DNA from: an uncultured Candidatus Rokubacteria bacterium
Lineage (GTDB): Bacteria; Methylomirabilota; Methylomirabilia; Rokubacteriales; CSP1-6
NCBI GenBank assembly: GCA_963747235.1
Contig: CAVVEU010000008.1
Coordinates: forward strand, 128,001 to 192,000
Reading direction: 5' to 3'
Length of the DNA: 64,000 bases
Shown here: one piece after another, positions 9,090-15,298 of the stretch
Layout of the letters: each line of letters opens with the position of its first letter
Position numbering within the stretch: position 1 is the stretch's first letter
Translations under genes and position numbers: made by a program
Notes under the pieces: generated by a model
What the model saw: only the letters and a program-made list of their open reading frames with translations
Told to the model about the DNA's origin: nothing
Databases searched by the model: none

Positions 9090-9539
9090 ATGGCGCGCTT
9101 GACGATCAACGGCCGATCGCTCGAGGTCAACGTCAACCCCAACACGCCGCTCCTGTGGGCCATCCGGGAGCAGGCGGGGCTCACCGGGACCAAGTACGGC
9201 TGCGGGATCGCCCAGTGCGGCGCCTGCACGGTGCACGTCGACGGCGTCGCGGTCCGCTCCTGTGTGATGCCGGTCGCCGCCGTCGCGGGCAAGAAGATCA
9301 CCACCATCGAGGGCCTGGCCACCGGCGCCGTCCTGCACAAGGTGCAGAAGGCCTGGCTCGACCACGAGGTGCCCCAGTGCGGCTACTGCCAGGCGGGCAT
9401 GATCATGGCGGTGGCGGCGTTGCTGAAGGACAAGCCCAGGCCGACCGACGCGGATATCGACGCGCGGATCACCAACATCTGTCGCTGCGGCACGTTCCAG
9501 CAGGTTCGTGAGGCCATTCACGCTGCGGCCAAGGCCTGA
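9090..9539 (+). CDS. (2Fe-2S)-binding small subunit of a molybdo-hydroxylase (IorA-like)
   Basis: [35 protein letters not shown] ggaggg. Confidence 0.95.
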
Positions 9540-9553
9540 GGGGGGTGGACATC

Positions 9554-11737
9554 ATGATCACCAGGACTCCGAAGATCAATCGCCGCTCCTTCGTCGTCGG
9601 CAGCGTCGCGGTCGGCGCGGGTCTCGCGCTCGGCCTCAAGATCCCGTTCGGCACGGAGGTCGTCCGCGCGCAGGACGGCTCGCCCGAGGTCACCGCGTGG
9701 GTGGTCATCCGCCCGGACGATACCGTCGTGATCCGGATCGCGCGCTCGGAGATGGGACAGGGCACGCTCACCGGTCTCGCCCAGATGGTCGCCGAGGAGC
9801 TCGAGTGCGACTGGTCGAAGGTGCAGACCGAGTACCCGACGCCCGGCCAGAGCGTCAAGCGCAAGCGCGTGTGGGGTGACTTCTCCACCGGTGGCAGCCG
9901 GGGCATCCGCACGTCGCACGAGTACGTCCGCAAGGGCGGGGCCACCGCGCGCGAGATGCTGATCCAGGCCGCGGCCGACGCCTGGAAGGTTCCCGCCGCC
10001 GAGTGCAGCGCCGCCAACAGCGTGATCACCCACAAGACCTCGGGCCGCACCACGACCTACGGGAAGGTGGCGGAGGCCGCCGCCAAGCTCACGCCGCCCG
10101 CGAACGTGGCGCTCAAGGACCCGAAGGACTGGAAGCTCATCGGCAAGTCGGTCAAGCGCCTGGACACGATGGCCAAGCTGACCGGCGCGCAGGTGTACGG
10201 GTTCGATCTCAAGCTGCCCGGGATGCTCAACGCCGCGATCAAGGATTGCCCGGTCTTCGGCGGCAAGGTGAAGAGCCTTCGAGGCGACCAAGGTCAAGGG
10301 GATGCCGGGAGTCCGGCACGTGCTCCCGGTTGGCGATTCGGCGGTGGCGGTGGTGGCCGACACGTGGTGGGAGGCCAAGACCGCGCTCGACGCGCTGCCC
10401 ATCTCCTGGGACGAGGGCCCCAATGCGAAGGTCTCGAGCGCGACGATCGCGGACATGCTGAAGGAGGGGCTCGACGCCGACCAGGCCTTCGTCAACAACC
10501 AGAACGGCGACGCAAGGCCGCCATCGGCGGGCGCGGCGAAGAAGGTCGAGGCGGTTTACGCGTATCCGTTCCAGAACCACGCGCCGATGGAACCGATGAA
10601 CGCGACGGCCAGGTACACCCCGGACCGGTGCGAGGTCTGGGTGCCCACGCAGAACGGCGAGGCCGCATTCGCGGCGACGCTGTCGGCGTCCGGGCTGCCG
10701 GCCGACAAGTGCGAGGTCTACAAGATCAACCTGGGCGGCGGGTTCGGCCGGCGCGGGGCCTTCCACGACTACGTCACCCAGGCCGTCCTGATCGCCAAGC
10801 AGATCCCGGGCATCGCCGGTGAAGCTCCTCTGGTCGCGCGAGGAGGACATGTTGCACGGAAGGTATCACCCGGTCATGCAGGCGAAGCTGACCGGCGCCT
10901 CGATGCCGAGCGGCAACCTGGTCGGGCTGCACATGCGCCTGTCGGGGCAGTCGATCCTCAGCGGACGTGTTCCCGCAGATGCTCCAGAACGGGCAAGGAC
11001 TCCTGACCTTCCAGGGCCTGCACAAGAGCGGGGACTTCGCCATCGGCTACACGGTCCCGAATCTCCTGATCGACCACGCCATGCGCAACACCCACGTCCC
11101 GCCGGGCTTCTGGCGCGGGGTGAACATCAACCAGAACGCGATCTTCCTCGAGTGCTTCATGGACGAGCTCGCCCATGCGGCCGGCCAGGATCCGCTCGAG
11201 TTCCGGCGCAAGCTGATGGCGAACCACCCCAAGCACCTCGCGGTGCTGAACGCGGTGGCCGACCGGGCCGGCTGGGGCAAGCCGGCGCCGCAGGGGGTGT
11301 ACCGCGGGCTGTCCCAGATGATGTCGTTCGGCAGCTACGTGGCGGCGTGCGCCGAGGTCTCCGTCAAGGACGGCAACAAGGTGAAGGTCCATCGCATCGT
11401 CGCCGCGACCGACACCGGGTACGCCGTCAACCCGGCGCAGATCGAGCGCCAGATCGCCGGCTCGTTCGTGTACGGCCTCTCCGCGCTCTTCATGGAGGAG
11501 TGCACGGTCAAGGACGGCCACATCGAGCAGACGAACTTCCACGAGTACGACTCCATGCGGATCGCGCAGATGCCGAAGGTGGAGGCGATCGTCATGCCGT
11601 CCGGCGGCTTCTGGGGCGGCGTCGGCGAGCCCACGATCTGCGTGGCGGCGCCCGCGGTCCTGAACGCCTTCTTCGCCGCGACCGGCAAGCGCCTGCGCAC
11701 GGTTCCGCTGAAGCACCACGGCGTGACCCTGGTATAA
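9554..11737 (+). CDS. Tat-exported molybdopterin-binding large subunit (IorB / xanthine dehydrogenase family), several frameshifts
   Basis: NRRSFV twin-arginine signal; RSEMGQG, STGGSRGI, HAPMEPMNA, GGGFGRR, GFWRGV, GGVGEP spread over four ORF pieces. Confidence 0.9.
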
Positions 11738-11741
11738 GCCC

Positions 11742-12032
11742 GTGATCGGCAGGGCCCTGGCCGCGGCGATCGGGATGGCCTCGATCGCCGCGGCGGTGGC
11801 GTCGGCGGAGCCTCCGGCCGGCGCCGCGGCGTGCTCGGGTTGTCACCCGGCCTCTCCACGGGTGGCGTCGCCCGTGCCTCGACTCACCGGGGTCGATCAG
11901 GCGGCGATCGTCCGGGCCCTCCGGGAGTTCCGCTCGGGGCAGCGTCCGGCCACCGTGATGGACCGGATCGCCAAGGGCTTCACGGACGACGAGATCCAGG
12001 CCCTCGCCGCCTGGTTCGCCACGCAGAAGTGA
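11742..12032 (+). CDS. Monoheme cytochrome c (cytochrome subunit of flavocytochrome c type)
   Basis: Signal peptide, CSGCH, ATVMDRIAKG axial Met; directly upstream of the FCSD flavoprotein. Confidence 0.9.
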   Translation: MIGRALAAAIGMASIAAAVASAEPPAGAAACSGCHPASPRVASPVPRLTGVDQAAIVRALREFRSGQRPATVMDRIAKGFTDDEIQALAAWFATQK

Positions 12033-13722: not shown

Positions 13723-13726
13723 CCGG

Positions 13727-14203
13727 ATGGACCGTCGAGCGTCGCGTCGCGAGTTCCTGCGGGCCGCCGGCGGCGTCGCGGCCGGCCTGGGGCTCGGGTC
13801 ACTCGTCGCGGTCCGGCCCGCGCGCGCCACCCCCGCCGAGATGGAAGACGCCATCCGCAAGGTGATCGGCTCCCCGACGGTCACCCCCGGTCGGGTGACG
13901 CTCGATCTGCCGCCCCTCATCGAGAACGGCAACGCGGTGCCGCTCACGGTGTCCGTGACGAGCCCGATGACCGGCGCCGATCACGTGCGGGCGATTCACG
14001 TCTTCACGCAGAAGAACCCGCAGCCCAATGTCGCGAGCTTCCACCTGGGGCCGCGCGCGGGCCGGGCGAAGGTGGCGACCCGTGTCCGGCTCGCCGACTC
14101 GCAGATGGTGATCGCGATCTGCGAGCTGAGCGACGGGACCTTCTGGTCGGACAGCGCGGACATCGTGGTCACCCTCGCGGCGTGTCTCGAGGACGGGATC
14201 TAG
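13727..14203 (+). CDS. soxY: SoxY-related carrier with AAC(I/L)E-type arm
   Basis: SRREFL Tat signal, PPLIENGNAVP, KNPQP, TRVRLADSQ; ends VVTLAACLEDGI instead of GGCGG. Confidence 0.88.
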   Translation: MDRRASRREFLRAAGGVAAGLGLGSLVAVRPARATPAEMEDAIRKVIGSPTVTPGRVTLDLPPLIENGNAVPLTVSVTSPMTGADHVRAIHVFTQKNPQPNVASFHLGPRAGRAKVATRVRLADSQMVIAICELSDGTFWSDSADIVVTLAACLEDGI

Positions 14204-14205
14204 CC

Positions 14206-14526
14206 GTGGCGAGCGTGCTGATCAACGTGCCCCCGCGGGCCAAGCGCGGCGAGATCATCGAGATCAAGACCCTGATCTCGCACACGATGGAGACGGGGTT
14301 CCGCCGCACCCAGCTCGGCGCGGTGATCCCCCGCGACATCATCCGGCGGTTCGCGTGCACCTACAACGGCACCGAGGTCTTCCGCGCCGAGCTCCACCCG
14401 GCGATCTCCGCCAATCCCTTCATCGTGTTCTCGACCATCGCCGTCGAGAGCGGCACGCTCGAGTTCCAGTGGACCGGCGACAACGGCTTCTCGGTGACGC
14501 AGTCGGCCGCCATCCTTGTCGAGTAG
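14206..14526 (+). CDS. soxZ: SoxZ carrier partner
   Basis: IKTLISHTMETGFRR, AISANPF, WTGDNG. Confidence 0.92.
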   Translation: MASVLINVPPRAKRGEIIEIKTLISHTMETGFRRTQLGAVIPRDIIRRFACTYNGTEVFRAELHPAISANPFIVFSTIAVESGTLEFQWTGDNGFSVTQSAAILVE

Positions 14527-15298
14527 GAGCCGACTCGCCGCCGCGGCGGTGGCGCTCGCGTTCGCGGCGTCGGCGTTCGCGGCCGAGATCCCCCGCGCCG
14601 ACCGCCGCTCCGGCTACGACTTCATGAGCCGCGAGACCCGGGCGATGCAGGACGACGACACCGCCAATCCGGGCATGCTCTGGGTCCTCGAGGGCGGAGC
14701 GCTCTGGACCCGGAAGACCGGCTCCGCCGGCCGGGCCTGCGCCGACTGTCACGGCGACGCCCGCGTGACCATGAAGGGCGTGGCCGCGCGCCATCCCGCG
14801 TTCGACGCCGCCCGGGGGCGGCCGCTCAACCTGGAGCAGCGCATCAACGCCTGCCGGGTCGACCGGCAGGGCGCGCCGCCGCTCGCCTACGAGAGCCGGG
14901 AGCTCCTGGCGCTGGCCGCCTACGTCGCGCGCCAGTCGCGCGGGGTGCCGATCGAGGTCGCGATCGACGCGCGGACCCAGCCGTTCCTCGACGCGGGCCA
15001 GGCCATCTACCATCGACGCCAGGGCCAGCTCAATCTGGCGTGCGGCCAGTGTCACGACGACCACTGGGGGCGGCAGCTCGCGGGCAATGTCATCCCGCAG
15101 GCGCACCCGACCGGGTACCCGCTCTACCGCCTGGAGTGGCAGGGGCTCGGCTCGCTCCAGCGGCGCCTGCGCAACTGCCTGGTGGGGATCCGCGCGGAGC
15201 CGTACGAGTTCGGCGCGCCCGAGCTCGTGCAGCTCGAGCTCTACCTGATGTGGCGCGCGCGGGGGATGACCTTCGAGGCGCCCGCGGTGCGGCCCTGA
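14516..15298 (+). CDS. soxA: Diheme SoxA cytochrome
   Basis: MQDDDTANPGMLWV, CADCH, RINAC, RQGQLNLACGQCH, YPLYRLEW, QRRLRNC, PAVRP. Confidence 0.93.
   Translation: MSSRSRLAAAAVALAFAASAFAAEIPRADRRSGYDFMSRETRAMQDDDTANPGMLWVLEGGALWTRKTGSAGRACADCHGDARVTMKGVAARHPAFDAARGRPLNLEQRINACRVDRQGAPPLAYESRELLALAAYVARQSRGVPIEVAIDARTQPFLDAGQAIYHRRQGQLNLACGQCHDDHWGRQLAGNVIPQAHPTGYPLYRLEWQGLGSLQRRLRNCLVGIRAEPYEFGAPELVQLELYLMWRARGMTFEAPAVRP

What the first reader, a model, noticed from the sequence alone, without database searches (positions are those of the whole stretch)
9090..15298. Molybdo-hydroxylase + flavocytochrome c + incomplete Sox in a single operon
Seen: eight tightly coupled genes: iorA-like, Tat iorB-like, cytochrome c, fccB/soxF, soxX, soxY-like, soxZ, soxA, with overlaps or gaps of at most about 15 nt and no soxB or soxCD. 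Established: canonical thiosulfate oxidation needs SoxB (hydrolysis) and usually SoxCD (sulfite-oxidase-family Mo enzyme), whereas IorAB belongs to the xanthine oxidase family acting on aldehydes and heterocycles. Inference: a periplasmic pathway for a non-thiosulfate (organo)sulfur substrate, in which SoxAX loads it onto the variant carrier and the Mo enzyme and FCSD process it, or one that supplies or recycles sulfur for the Mo-sulfido enzyme. Similar arrangements may exist in other genomes, but I know of no established function.
Basis: partly seen in the sequence, partly recalled or inferred. Interest (0 to 1): 0.78.

Follow-up and report, generated by a model that had tools for sequence, protein, structure and literature searches.

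The report
Molybdenum enzyme wedded to variant Sox carrier
This is a soil bacterium's copy of a widespread but functionally unexplained gene cluster in which a molybdenum dehydrogenase is almost always encoded beside a variant sulfur-carrier system, so the two very probably work together in a pathway that is not ordinary thiosulfate oxidation.

Summary
The eight genes are present and tightly packed: iorA, iorB, a small cytochrome c, FCSD flavoprotein, soxX, an AACIE-type soxY paralogue, soxZ and soxA. As assembled, iorB is split by three 1-nt insertions. It is intact in 4 of 4 close relatives, and this assembly carries about 1,200 similar frame breaks, so these are most likely assembly errors.

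No SoxB, SoxC or true GGCGG SoxY reached cut-off in the 88%-complete genome.

The iorAB link is strongly conserved:
- 31 of 36 loci in the same phylum have iorB upstream; the other 5 stop at contig ends.
- 74 of 80 best loci across GTDB species have it (66 labelled Proteobacteria, including cultured Bradyrhizobium); the other 6 are cut short.
- 17 of 18 informative loci in an even Alphaproteobacteria sample have it.

The core is iorAB plus soxXYZA. FCSD and the small cytochrome are optional. The linked IorBs form one clade.

The cluster type is already in print. Starkeya novella has a 'second sox cluster' with an xanthine-oxidase-family enzyme that was barely expressed on thiosulfate (PMC3797975). 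Bradyrhizobium soxY2 is not needed for thiosulfate oxidation (PMC5748708). Function remains unknown.

My best reading is a self-contained periplasmic module in which the Mo enzyme partners the variant carrier. This window is a new member of a known but uncharacterised kind.

The parts
9090..9539 (+). iorA-like small subunit with two [2Fe-2S] clusters. It has no signal peptide and presumably is exported with IorB.
   Evidence: Pfam Fer2_2 at 94 bits and Fer2 at 39 bits. It sits below every NCBIfam equivalog cut-off. Relatives are 81-96% identical.
9545..11737 (+). iorB-like molybdopterin large subunit with a Tat signal (..INRRSFVVGS..). It is split over three frames as assembled.
   Evidence: The pieces match TAT_signal, MoCoBD_2 and MoCoBD_1. 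The gene is a single frame in G013, G014, G015 and G020. The nearest solved structure is the large subunit of membrane-bound aldehyde dehydrogenase, 8gy3_C, at E 4.7e-109.
10276..10276 (+). Frame break 1: one extra C relative to four relatives.
   Evidence: Alignment, blastn gaps, GC3 frame switch.
10813..10813 (+). Frame break 2: one extra T relative to four relatives.
10963..10963 (+). Frame break 3: one extra G relative to four relatives.
11742..12032 (+). Small monohaem c-type cytochrome (96 aa, CSGCH) with a signal peptide. It is an optional part of the cluster.
   Evidence: Only weak cytochrome c matches. tblastn found it in 32 of 80 loci of the GTDB survey.
12029..13303 (+). Flavocytochrome c sulfide dehydrogenase flavoprotein (FccB/SoxF-like) with a Tat signal. 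It is an optional part of the cluster.
   Evidence: Pfam FCSD_central, FCSD-flav_bind and Pyr_redox_2. It is absent from the operon in L114, L151 and 8 Alphaproteobacteria loci.
13300..13722 (+). soxX, a monohaem cytochrome (CLLCH).
   Evidence: TIGR04485 at 83.9 bits, above cut-off 61.
13727..14203 (+). SoxY paralogue with a Tat signal and the C-terminus ...VTLAACLEDGI. This is the carrier protein with the variant arm.
   Evidence: TIGR04487 at 214.4 bits, above cut-off 172. TIGR04488 (true SoxY) at 112.2 bits, below cut-off 125. A152 and C153 are invariant in 75 orthologues.
14206..14526 (+). soxZ, partner of the carrier. The start is GTG, 2 nt after the soxY stop.
   Evidence: TIGR04490 at 86.3 bits, above cut-off 76. 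The start was chosen and the consensus.
14516..15298 (+). soxA, a dihaem cytochrome (CADCH, CGQCH). The start codon is uncertain (TTG 14516).
   Evidence: TIGR04484 at 222.6 bits, above cut-off 110.

Best explanation
The window holds one copy of a conserved, self-contained periplasmic module. It consists of a dedicated clade of IorAB-type (xanthine-oxidase-family, aldehyde-dehydrogenase-like) molybdenum enzyme, its own SoxAX cytochrome and a SoxYZ carrier whose arm ends in AAC[ILV][ED]xx instead of GGCGG. An FCSD flavoprotein and a small cytochrome c are optional additions.

Shown:
- The gene identities and the export signals.
- The near-obligate co-location of iorAB with soxXYZA across phyla.
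- The separate clade formed by the linked IorBs.
- The module's presence in genomes both with and without SoxB.

Inferred:
- SoxAX oxidatively couples a reduced sulfur compound to Cys153 of the variant carrier.
- The Mo enzyme takes the place that SoxB and SoxCD hold in the canonical system. It acts on the carrier-bound adduct, or on the product released from it, and passes two electrons at a time through its 2Fe-2S subunit to c-type cytochromes.
- FCSD, where present, feeds in sulfide-derived sulfur.
- The substrate is not ordinary thiosulfate.
- The three frame breaks in this window's iorB are assembly errors, so the gene is probably intact in the organism.
For: Linkage:
- Same phylum: 31 of 36 relatives' loci carry iorB upstream on the same strand. 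The other 5 (L058, L065, L075, L088, L090) end at a contig edge first.
- GTDB-wide: 74 of the best 80 loci (out of 491 confirmed relatives) carry it. The other 6 have less than 1.9 kb upstream. Sixty-six of the 80 are labelled Proteobacteria, including cultured Bradyrhizobium strains.
- Even sample of 401 Alphaproteobacteria: 19 genomes are over cut-off. Of 20 loci fetched, 18 are informative and 17 have iorAB directly upstream.
- The one exception (G540) has an orthologous IorB on another contig that falls inside the linked clade.

Core versus extras: iorAB-soxXYZA occurs without FCSD in L151, in L114 (where iorAB is followed directly by soxYZ) and in 8 Alphaproteobacteria loci.

Reciprocity: in the phylum sample, 39 genomes hold an IorB at least 81% identical and 39 hold TIGR04487. 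Thirty-three hold both. I traced the one-sided cases to a contig end for G014 and G206 (IorB only) and for G138, G120, G118, G161 and G208 (SoxY only). For G194, G187 and G193 the IorB match is partial, on short contigs. G078 and the unpublished G095 were not examined.

Tree: all linked IorBs form one clade (SH-aLRT 100), apart from unlinked paralogues at 40-43% identity.

No other flanking gene family is shared. The best was found in 21 of 76 loci.

Independence from SoxB: 29 of 39 TIGR04487-positive genomes have SoxB. In 10 it was not found, including genomes 98-100% complete (G071, G118, G143, G204).

The catalytic-loop Glu (E691 in L071 numbering) is invariant in 75 of 75 sequences. It aligns to the GLGEP loop of 8gy3_C.

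Literature passages read: PMC3797975 and PMC5748708.

Assembly errors:
- iorB is a single frame in 4 of 4 relatives.
- The breaks are three 1-nt insertions.
- Two more insertions lie in the neighbouring acyl-CoA dehydrogenase gene.
- My detector found 1,213 candidate frame breaks in 5.42 Mb (0.22 per kb). It found 2 in 15 loci (about 265 kb) from fragmented assemblies.
Against: - No experiment or expression datum bears on this organism.
- In S. novella the SoxAX2 and SoxYZ2 proteins were not detected, and transcripts were very low on glucose, methanol and thiosulfate. The authors considered that the cluster might have no functional significance under those conditions (PMC3797975, passages).
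- No xanthine-oxidase-family enzyme is known to act on a protein-bound sulfur (my own knowledge).
- The AACIE arm looks less flexible than GGCGG and might not reach a buried Mo site. This is inference only.
- Co-location, however strict, does not prove physical or metabolic coupling.
- The surveys are dominated by two lineages, Rokubacteria family f1 and Bradyrhizobium/Xanthobacteraceae. Relatives are not independent observations.
- More distant AAC-type SoxY proteins (45-50% identity) were not surveyed for context.
Confidence: 0.55

Rival explanations
1. Cofactor maintenance. SoxAX loads a sulfane sulfur onto the variant SoxY. The carrier then delivers it to the periplasmic IorB to restore the terminal Mo=S ligand that xanthine-oxidase-family enzymes need and lose easily. 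On this view the Sox part services the enzyme and does not share a substrate with it.
For: - The variant Sox set and this IorB clade go together almost one-to-one.
- One Sox set can sit beside two or three tandem iorAB pairs (L100, L153, L162, L168).
- No XdhC-type chaperone gene is among the shared neighbours.
- The need for Mo=S is established knowledge of the family.
Against: - XdhC-like genes exist elsewhere in the genome, on C24 and C20 beside other family members, so cytoplasmic sulfuration is available.
- Other periplasmic members of the family, such as the 8gy3 aldehyde dehydrogenase and the unlinked 40-43% paralogues, do without such a set.
- Four genes are a heavy cost for a repair function.
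- FCSD co-location is not explained.
Confidence: 0.12
2. Two independent functions share an operon. IorAB is an ordinary periplasmic aldehyde or N-heterocycle dehydrogenase. The truncated Sox set, with or without FCSD, is a redundant or auxiliary sulfide/thiosulfate-handling unit. On this view they are kept together only because they use the same c-type cytochrome electron acceptors or the same regulator.
For: - The nearest solved relative is an aldehyde dehydrogenase, and the catalytic Glu is kept.
- S. novella expresses the cluster poorly, and its authors suggested redundancy (PMC3797975).
- In G540 the two parts lie on different contigs.
Against: - The order and adjacency are kept across phyla while every other neighbour changes.
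- The linked IorBs are a separate clade. Sixty positions are at least 95% conserved in it and differ in all four unlinked paralogues. One is W686, next to the catalytic loop.
- The SoxY arm is itself a specialised variant that fails the true-SoxY model.
- The module occurs in genomes where no SoxB was found, and a bare SoxAX-YZ could not turn over there by the canonical scheme.
Confidence: 0.18
3. In this particular organism iorB is a true pseudogene, and the module is decaying.
For: Three frame-shifting insertions lie in 2.2 kb of iorB, while the 3.6 kb from the cytochrome c gene to soxA has none.
Against: - GC3 stays at 0.85-1.0 in every piece.
- There are no other lesions, and the pieces are 80-93% identical to those of G013 and 78-91% identical to those of G020.
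- The same detector finds 1,213 breaks genome-wide. It finds comparable rates in some other very contiguous assemblies (G158 with 6, G086 with 5, G023 with 6 per roughly 19 kb) and almost none in fragmented ones.
- Zero breaks in 3.6 kb is not unusual at 0.2-0.5 breaks per kb.
Confidence: 0.1

Closest known systems
Second sox cluster of Starkeya novella (soxX2Y2Z2A2F2, Snov_1982-1977, with the xanthine-oxidase-family enzyme Snov_1975/1976). Source: Kappler et al. 2013, PMC3797975, passages read.
   Same: It has duplicate SoxAX and SoxYZ, a SoxF-like flavoprotein and an xanthine-oxidase-family Mo enzyme in one operon. SoxB and SoxCD are missing. The host is a soil bacterium.
   Different: The gene order as named in the paper puts the Mo enzyme after soxF2 instead of first. 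I could not fetch that genome to test whether its SoxY2 is of the AACIE type or whether its Mo enzyme falls in the linked clade. That organism also has a full Sox system. Here none was found.
soxY2 locus of Bradyrhizobium diazoefficiens. Source: PMC5748708 introduction, which cites Masuda et al. 2010. That paper is not held, so it was not read.
   Same: Bradyrhizobium loci, including a B. diazoefficiens strain (L159), carry iorAB-fccB-soxX-soxY(AACIE)-soxZ-soxA in the same order. Identity to the window's proteins is 53-79%.
   Different: I infer, but did not verify, that the published soxY2 is this gene. Most Bradyrhizobium loci lack the small cytochrome c. Bradyrhizobium also has SoxB (G210).
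Canonical Sox system (SoxXA, SoxYZ, SoxB, SoxCD) of Paracoccus and other Alphaproteobacteria.
   Same: SoxA, SoxX and SoxZ pass the curated models. The system is periplasmic, and the carrier has a single conserved C-terminal Cys.
   Different: The carrier arm is AACLEDGI, not GGCGG, and fails the true-SoxY cut-off. SoxB and SoxCD are absent. The Mo enzyme belongs to the xanthine oxidase family, not the sulfite oxidase family.
Membrane-bound aldehyde dehydrogenase (PDB 8gy3, large subunit) and, more generally, IorAB-type two-subunit Mo dehydrogenases.
   Same: The domain order is the same over the whole length (E 4.7e-109, profile positions 4-723). Both have a Tat-exported large subunit and a 2Fe-2S small subunit, keep the Glu in the GxGE loop, and use cytochrome c as the likely acceptor.
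   Different: No large multihaem cytochrome subunit is encoded here, only a 96-aa monohaem protein that is optional. The linked clade has its own conserved residues, for example C85, R103, R105, W107 and W686, which differ in the unlinked paralogues. The substrate is unknown.
NCBIfam TIGR04557, 'quinoprotein dehydrogenase-associated SoxYZ-like carrier'.
   Same: This is another case, known only from annotation, of a SoxYZ-like carrier filed with a periplasmic non-Sox dehydrogenase. The window's SoxY and SoxZ give weak matches to it (61 and 41 bits).
   Different: It is a fused YZ protein associated with PQQ enzymes. The matches are below its cut-off of 140 bits. I did not examine any such locus.

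Membership tests
SoxY-related AACIE arm protein (NCBIfam TIGR04487) | Score over the curated cut-off (172 bits) | tested here: met
   214.4 bits; 213.8 bits in the genome search.
SoxY-related AACIE arm protein (NCBIfam TIGR04487) | C-terminal AAC-[ILV]-[ED] arm in place of GGCGG | tested here: met
   The protein ends in ...VTLAACLEDGI. A152 and C153 are invariant in 75 orthologues.
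True SoxY (TIGR04488) | Score over cut-off 125 bits and a GGCGG C-terminus | tested here: not met
   112.2 bits, and no GGCGG. No match over cut-off anywhere in the genome.
Canonical Sox thiosulfate-oxidising system | SoxB thiosulfohydrolase present | tested here: not met
   The best match is 44.7 bits against cut-off 550, in an 88%-complete genome with 16,000 bases withheld. SoxB was not found over cut-off in any of the 13 sampled genomes of the genus.
Canonical Sox thiosulfate-oxidising system | SoxCD sulfane dehydrogenase present | tested here: not met
   The best SoxC match is 81.4 bits against cut-off 420. SoxD was not searched.
Canonical Sox thiosulfate-oxidising system | SoxA, SoxX and SoxZ present | tested here: met
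   TIGR04484 at 222.6 against 110, TIGR04485 at 83.9 against 61, TIGR04490 at 86.3 against 76.
Flavocytochrome c sulfide dehydrogenase (FCSD/SoxF) | FCSD central and flavin-binding domains on a pyridine-nucleotide-disulfide oxidoreductase fold | tested here: met
   PF21706 at 167.5 bits, PF09242 at 93.6 bits, PF07992 at 48.8 bits.
Flavocytochrome c sulfide dehydrogenase (FCSD/SoxF) | Dihaem or monohaem cytochrome partner (FccA/SoxE) | tested here: inconclusive
   A 96-aa CxxCH protein lies directly upstream, but it matches cytochrome models only below cut-off. It could equally serve IorAB.
Xanthine oxidase family, IorAB-type Mo dehydrogenase | 2Fe-2S small subunit plus a large subunit with both molybdopterin-binding domains | tested here: met
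   profile match to 41 solved family members.
Xanthine oxidase family, IorAB-type Mo dehydrogenase | Intact large-subunit reading frame | tested here: not met
   Three +1 frame steps in the window. The frame is intact in G013, G014, G015 and G020. I judge the breaks to be assembly errors.
Xanthine oxidase family, IorAB-type Mo dehydrogenase | Catalytic glutamate near the Mo site | tested here: met
   E691 (L071 numbering) is invariant in 75 of 75 sequences and aligns with the GLGEP loop of 8gy3_C. That this Glu is the catalytic base is recalled family knowledge.
Isoquinoline 1-oxidoreductase (the enzyme activity) | Oxidation of isoquinoline | not testable with these tools
   No NCBIfam equivalog was reached. 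All matches are far below cut-off.
'Second sox cluster' with a xanthine-oxidase-family enzyme (S. novella type) | soxX, Y, Z, A plus soxF plus a xanthine-oxidase-family enzyme in one operon, without soxB or soxCD | tested here: met
   Gene content, compared with the description in PMC3797975. The orthology of the S. novella genes themselves was not tested.

The most novel reading that the evidence does not exclude
The IorAB-type enzyme is the arm-processing enzyme of a SoxB- and SoxCD-independent Sox-like pathway. It would be the first xanthine-oxidase-family molybdoenzyme to act on a sulfur or organosulfur adduct carried on a protein cysteine, the AACIE arm of SoxY2. That would define a new route of periplasmic sulfur-compound oxidation, common in soil Bradyrhizobium, Xanthobacteraceae, Burkholderiales and Rokubacteria. 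The route appears to have spread between phyla as a unit.
Probability: 0.25. Interest if true: 0.85.

Novelty: new member of a known kind. Interest (0 to 1): 0.6.

Why it matters
Truncated 'second' sox clusters have been treated as redundant copies of the thiosulfate pathway. This survey shows something different. The AACIE-type carrier, its own SoxAX and one dedicated clade of molybdenum dehydrogenase travel together across phyla, and nothing else in the neighbourhood is kept. They also occur in genomes where no SoxB was found. That pattern points to an unrecognised periplasmic pathway in abundant soil bacteria. Metagenome surveys that count soxA, soxX, soxY or soxZ as evidence for thiosulfate oxidation may be miscounting these loci. 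Cultured Bradyrhizobium and Starkeya strains carry the same cluster, so the question is directly testable by genetics and biochemistry.

Tried and rejected
**Complex prediction.** I submitted IorB (residues 40-726 of L071), SoxZ and SoxY (residues 35-158) with 75-row alignments. The verdict was 'no answer'. The score was 0.85, but it was 0.84 when IorB was replaced by an unrelated protein, so the score comes from the SoxY-SoxZ pair. It says nothing about IorB either way.

**Reads.** No run holds half of the words of window 9500-11800; the best share is 0.36.

**Shared neighbours.** I clustered 1,162 flanking ORFs from 76 loci. No family occurs in more than 21 loci. Those identified are transporters (MacB-type ABC, MFS, binding-protein systems), an amidohydrolase and an isochorismatase. 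None gave a clue to the substrate.

**Promoter and terminator scan.** It found one promoter-like and one terminator-like site, both on the minus strand, which is no more than the shuffled controls gave. It is uninformative for a 70% GC genome.

**Literature searches that found nothing on the linkage.** 'AACIE'; isoquinoline 1-oxidoreductase + soxY; soxY/iorA/iorB; GGCGG + SoxY; Rokubacteria + soxY (listing only); isoquinoline 1-oxidoreductase + thiosulfate. 'second sox' + 'xanthine oxidase family' returned only PMC3797975. Masuda et al. 2010 (PMC2849208) and Kappler & Maher 2013 (PMC11113948) are not held. Kappler & Nouwens 2013 was not seen. Supplements are closed, and the supplementary tables of PMC3797975 may hold expression values for Snov_1975/1976.

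**Considered and rejected.**
- An obligatory role for FCSD, because it is absent from many loci.
- Programmed frameshifting in iorB, because relatives have a plain single frame.
- Dependence on a SoxB elsewhere, because 10 of 39 carrier genomes have none detected.

Full report
**What is in the window**

Between two minus-strand genes lie eight plus-strand genes. The flanking genes are an NHL/SGL-like gene at 7903-8973 and a class-V aminotransferase at 15312-16253. The junctions between the eight genes are +5, +4, -4, -4, +4, +2 and -11 nt.

- iorA (9090-9539) carries the two 2Fe-2S domains.
- iorB (9545-11737) carries a Tat motif and both molybdopterin-binding domains.
- A 96-aa CxxCH cytochrome follows (11742-12032).
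- An FCSD flavoprotein with a Tat signal follows (12029-13303).
- soxX, soxZ and soxA all pass NCBIfam's curated cut-offs.
- The soxY gene passes the model 'SoxY-related AACIE arm protein' (TIGR04487, 214.4 bits against 172). It fails the true-SoxY model (112.2 against 125) and ends in ...LAACLEDGI.

Named hits place the organism among Rokubacteria/Methylomirabilota. GC content is about 72%.

**The frame breaks**

iorB is not one open frame here. The translation and the third-position GC plot step +1 at about 10276, 10813 and 10963.

- In G013, G014, G015 and G020, all of the same genus, the four pieces lie in one frame. The alignment shows three single extra bases in the window: C, T and G.
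- Two more single-base insertions, relative to both G013 and G014, lie in the acyl-CoA dehydrogenase gene at 7026 and 7124.
- A simple detector recovered all three iorB sites. It looks for adjacent same-strand coding segments in different frames where the first frame has no stop at the junction.
- That detector finds 1,213 candidates in 5.42 Mb of this genome (0.22 per kb). It finds 2 candidates in 15 loci (about 265 kb) from fragmented assemblies of relatives. It finds 5-6 per roughly 19 kb in some other very contiguous assemblies (G158, G086, G023) and 0-2 in others (G013, G155, G163, G203).

I conclude that the breaks are most likely assembly errors.

**The rest of the genome**

No SoxB (best 44.7 bits against 550), no SoxC (81.4 against 420) and no true SoxY over cut-off were found. 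The genome is 88% complete, and 16,000 bases are withheld.

A second SoxY-like/SoxZ-like pair lies on contig C40. It sits beside a DMSO-reductase-family molybdoenzyme, a 4Fe-4S/NrfD protein and an FCSD-like gene.

**Is the iorAB linkage conserved?**

Three surveys address this.

1. *Same phylum.* Of 201 genomes, 39 have TIGR04487 over cut-off.
   - I fetched up to ±9.5 kb for 36 relatives. That is 35 plus G020. The two unpublished genomes were left out.
   - 31 of 36 have iorB upstream on the same strand. The other 5 end at a contig edge before that position.
2. *One genome per GTDB species.* Two peptide patterns from an 8-sequence alignment gave 491 confirmed relatives, and the best 80 were kept.
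   - 74 of 80 have iorB upstream. The other 6 have less than 1.9 kb upstream.
   - 66 of the 80 are labelled Proteobacteria: Bradyrhizobium including cultured strains, Xanthobacteraceae, Burkholderiales, a betaproteobacterium and a Rhodospirillales MAG.
3. *Even sample of 401 Alphaproteobacteria.* 19 are over cut-off.
   - Of 20 loci fetched (18 over cut-off, 2 just under), 18 are informative and 17 have iorAB directly upstream.
   - The exception, G540, has a 62%-identical IorB on another contig. In the tree it sits inside the linked clade, next to two linked sequences.

**Layouts**

- Two main layouts occur: iorAB-(cyt c)-fccB-soxXYZA and iorAB-soxXYZA.
- fccB lies after soxA in two loci.
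- One Burkholderiales locus has iorAB-soxYZ followed by a second iorAB-soxXYZA.
- Several loci have two or three tandem iorAB pairs.
- The small cytochrome was detected in 32 of the 80 loci.

The constant core is therefore iorAB plus soxXYZA.

**Further comparative evidence**

- *Reciprocity.* In the phylum sample, 39 genomes have an IorB at least 81% identical to the query, and 33 of them are among the 39 TIGR04487-positive genomes. I traced the one-sided cases to a contig end for G014, G206, G138, G120, G118, G161 and G208. For G194, G187 and G193 the IorB match is partial, on short contigs. G078 and the unpublished G095 were not examined.
- *Tree.* The tree has 81 IorB sequences (IQ-TREE quick mode, SH-aLRT support only, midpoint root for drawing).
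  - It puts all linked IorBs in one clade with support 100. Four unlinked paralogues at 40-43% identity fall outside it.
  - The clade contains a main type and a divergent 'type B'. Type B is the sox-proximal copy in the tandem loci L153, L162 and L168, the distal copy in L138, and the second iorB of L114.
  - The 17 Rokubacteria sequences form one group, nested among proteobacterial ones next to a Burkholderiales sequence. This suggests transfer of the operon into Rokubacteria. I did not test that formally.
- *Clade-specific residues.* Sixty positions are at least 95% conserved in the main type and differ in all four unlinked paralogues. They include C85, R103, R105, W107 and W686. W686 sits beside the loop with the invariant Glu.
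- *Flanks.* No flanking gene family is shared by more than 21 of 76 loci.

**Relation to SoxB**

Of the 39 TIGR04487-positive genomes, 29 have SoxB. That is 28 over cut-off plus one partial match at a contig end. In 10, SoxB was not found, including genomes 98-100% complete. Three of four proteobacterial carriers checked have SoxB. The module is therefore neither dependent on the canonical system nor exclusive of it.

**What the Mo enzyme resembles**

A profile of 75 linked IorBs matches the large subunit of a membrane-bound aldehyde dehydrogenase (8gy3_C) over its whole length, at E 4.7e-109. The next matches are PaoC-type aldehyde oxidoreductases. XdhC-like chaperone genes exist elsewhere in the genome.

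**Literature**

- Passages of PMC3797975 describe a second sox cluster in Starkeya novella, soxX2Y2Z2A2F2, without SoxB or SoxCD. Its operon also encodes an xanthine-oxidase-family Mo enzyme. SoxAX2 and SoxYZ2 were not detected by proteomics, and transcripts were very low on glucose, methanol and thiosulfate. The authors raised the possibility of no functional role, or of a role under untested conditions.
- A passage of PMC5748708 states that B. diazoefficiens has soxY1 and soxY2, and that only soxY1 is essential for thiosulfate oxidation.
- Six other searches found nothing on the linkage.

The cluster type is therefore known, and its function is not.

**Interpretation**

The strict co-location across phyla, the dedicated IorB clade, the specialised carrier arm and the lack of any other shared neighbour argue for one functional unit.

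I commit to the following. SoxAX loads a sulfur compound onto the variant carrier. The Mo enzyme stands in for SoxB/SoxCD as the carrier's processing partner, and it passes electrons to c-type cytochromes. FCSD is an optional feeder. Only the gene-level facts are shown; the chemistry is inferred.

The rivals are cofactor (Mo=S) maintenance, independent functions that share electron acceptors, and true decay of iorB in this organism.

**Verdict**

- This is a new member of a known but uncharacterised kind.
- Interest is 0.6.

Noticed in passing
whole genome G000; in the window e.g. 2958, 3163, 7026, 7124, 16869, 24158, 27362, 38332, 41237, 45389, 57984: Frame breaks are pervasive. My detector finds 1,213 candidates genome-wide (0.22 per kb) and 18 in the 64-kb window. 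Two single-base insertions lie in the acyl-CoA dehydrogenase gene just upstream of the operon. Any single-gene 'pseudogene' call in this genome is unsafe.
   Followed up: partly
G000 contig C40, locus L010 4955-15026 (minus strand): A second SoxY-like protein (ending ...VTVAGCAA, below both SoxY cut-offs) and a SoxZ-like protein lie here. Beside them are a DMSO-reductase-family molybdoenzyme, a 4Fe-4S/NrfD membrane protein, an FCSD-like flavoprotein (frame-broken) and a fumarate-reductase-like flavoprotein. This is another pairing of a SoxYZ-like carrier with a non-Sox Mo enzyme in the same genome.
   Followed up: partly
L100, L138, L153, L162, L168, L114; tree: Some Alphaproteobacteria and one Burkholderiales locus carry two or three tandem iorAB pairs beside one variant Sox set. 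They include a divergent 'type B' IorB at about 50% identity. In L114, one iorAB is followed directly by soxYZ and a second by soxXYZA.
   Followed up: partly
L098 17470-20122 (minus strand); G209, G113, G187 and others: A third IorAB type, 59-63% identical, occurs in Rokubacteria. In L098 it lies 7 kb from the operon on the other strand. It is also found in genomes without an AACIE SoxY. Its partner genes were not examined.
   Followed up: no
tree: The Rokubacteria IorB sequences form one group nested within proteobacterial sequences, next to Burkholderiales and betaproteobacterial ones. The operon's proteins are 60-80% identical between the phyla. This suggests transfer of the whole operon between phyla.
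   Followed up: partly
L104 and L166: Two public records carry surprising labels. L104 is titled Limnocylindria (Chloroflexota), yet it is the contig of G020, which the genome tool places in the window's own genus. L166 is titled Enterobacteriaceae but carries a 63-80% identical operon that groups with a betaproteobacterial sequence. The labels or the binning may be wrong.
   Followed up: no
G070 contigs C51 and C33: One relative holds two full-length IorB copies, each 90% identical to the query, on different contigs. Its AACIE soxY lies on a third contig that ends at soxX. This could be a duplication or mixed strains in the bin.
   Followed up: no
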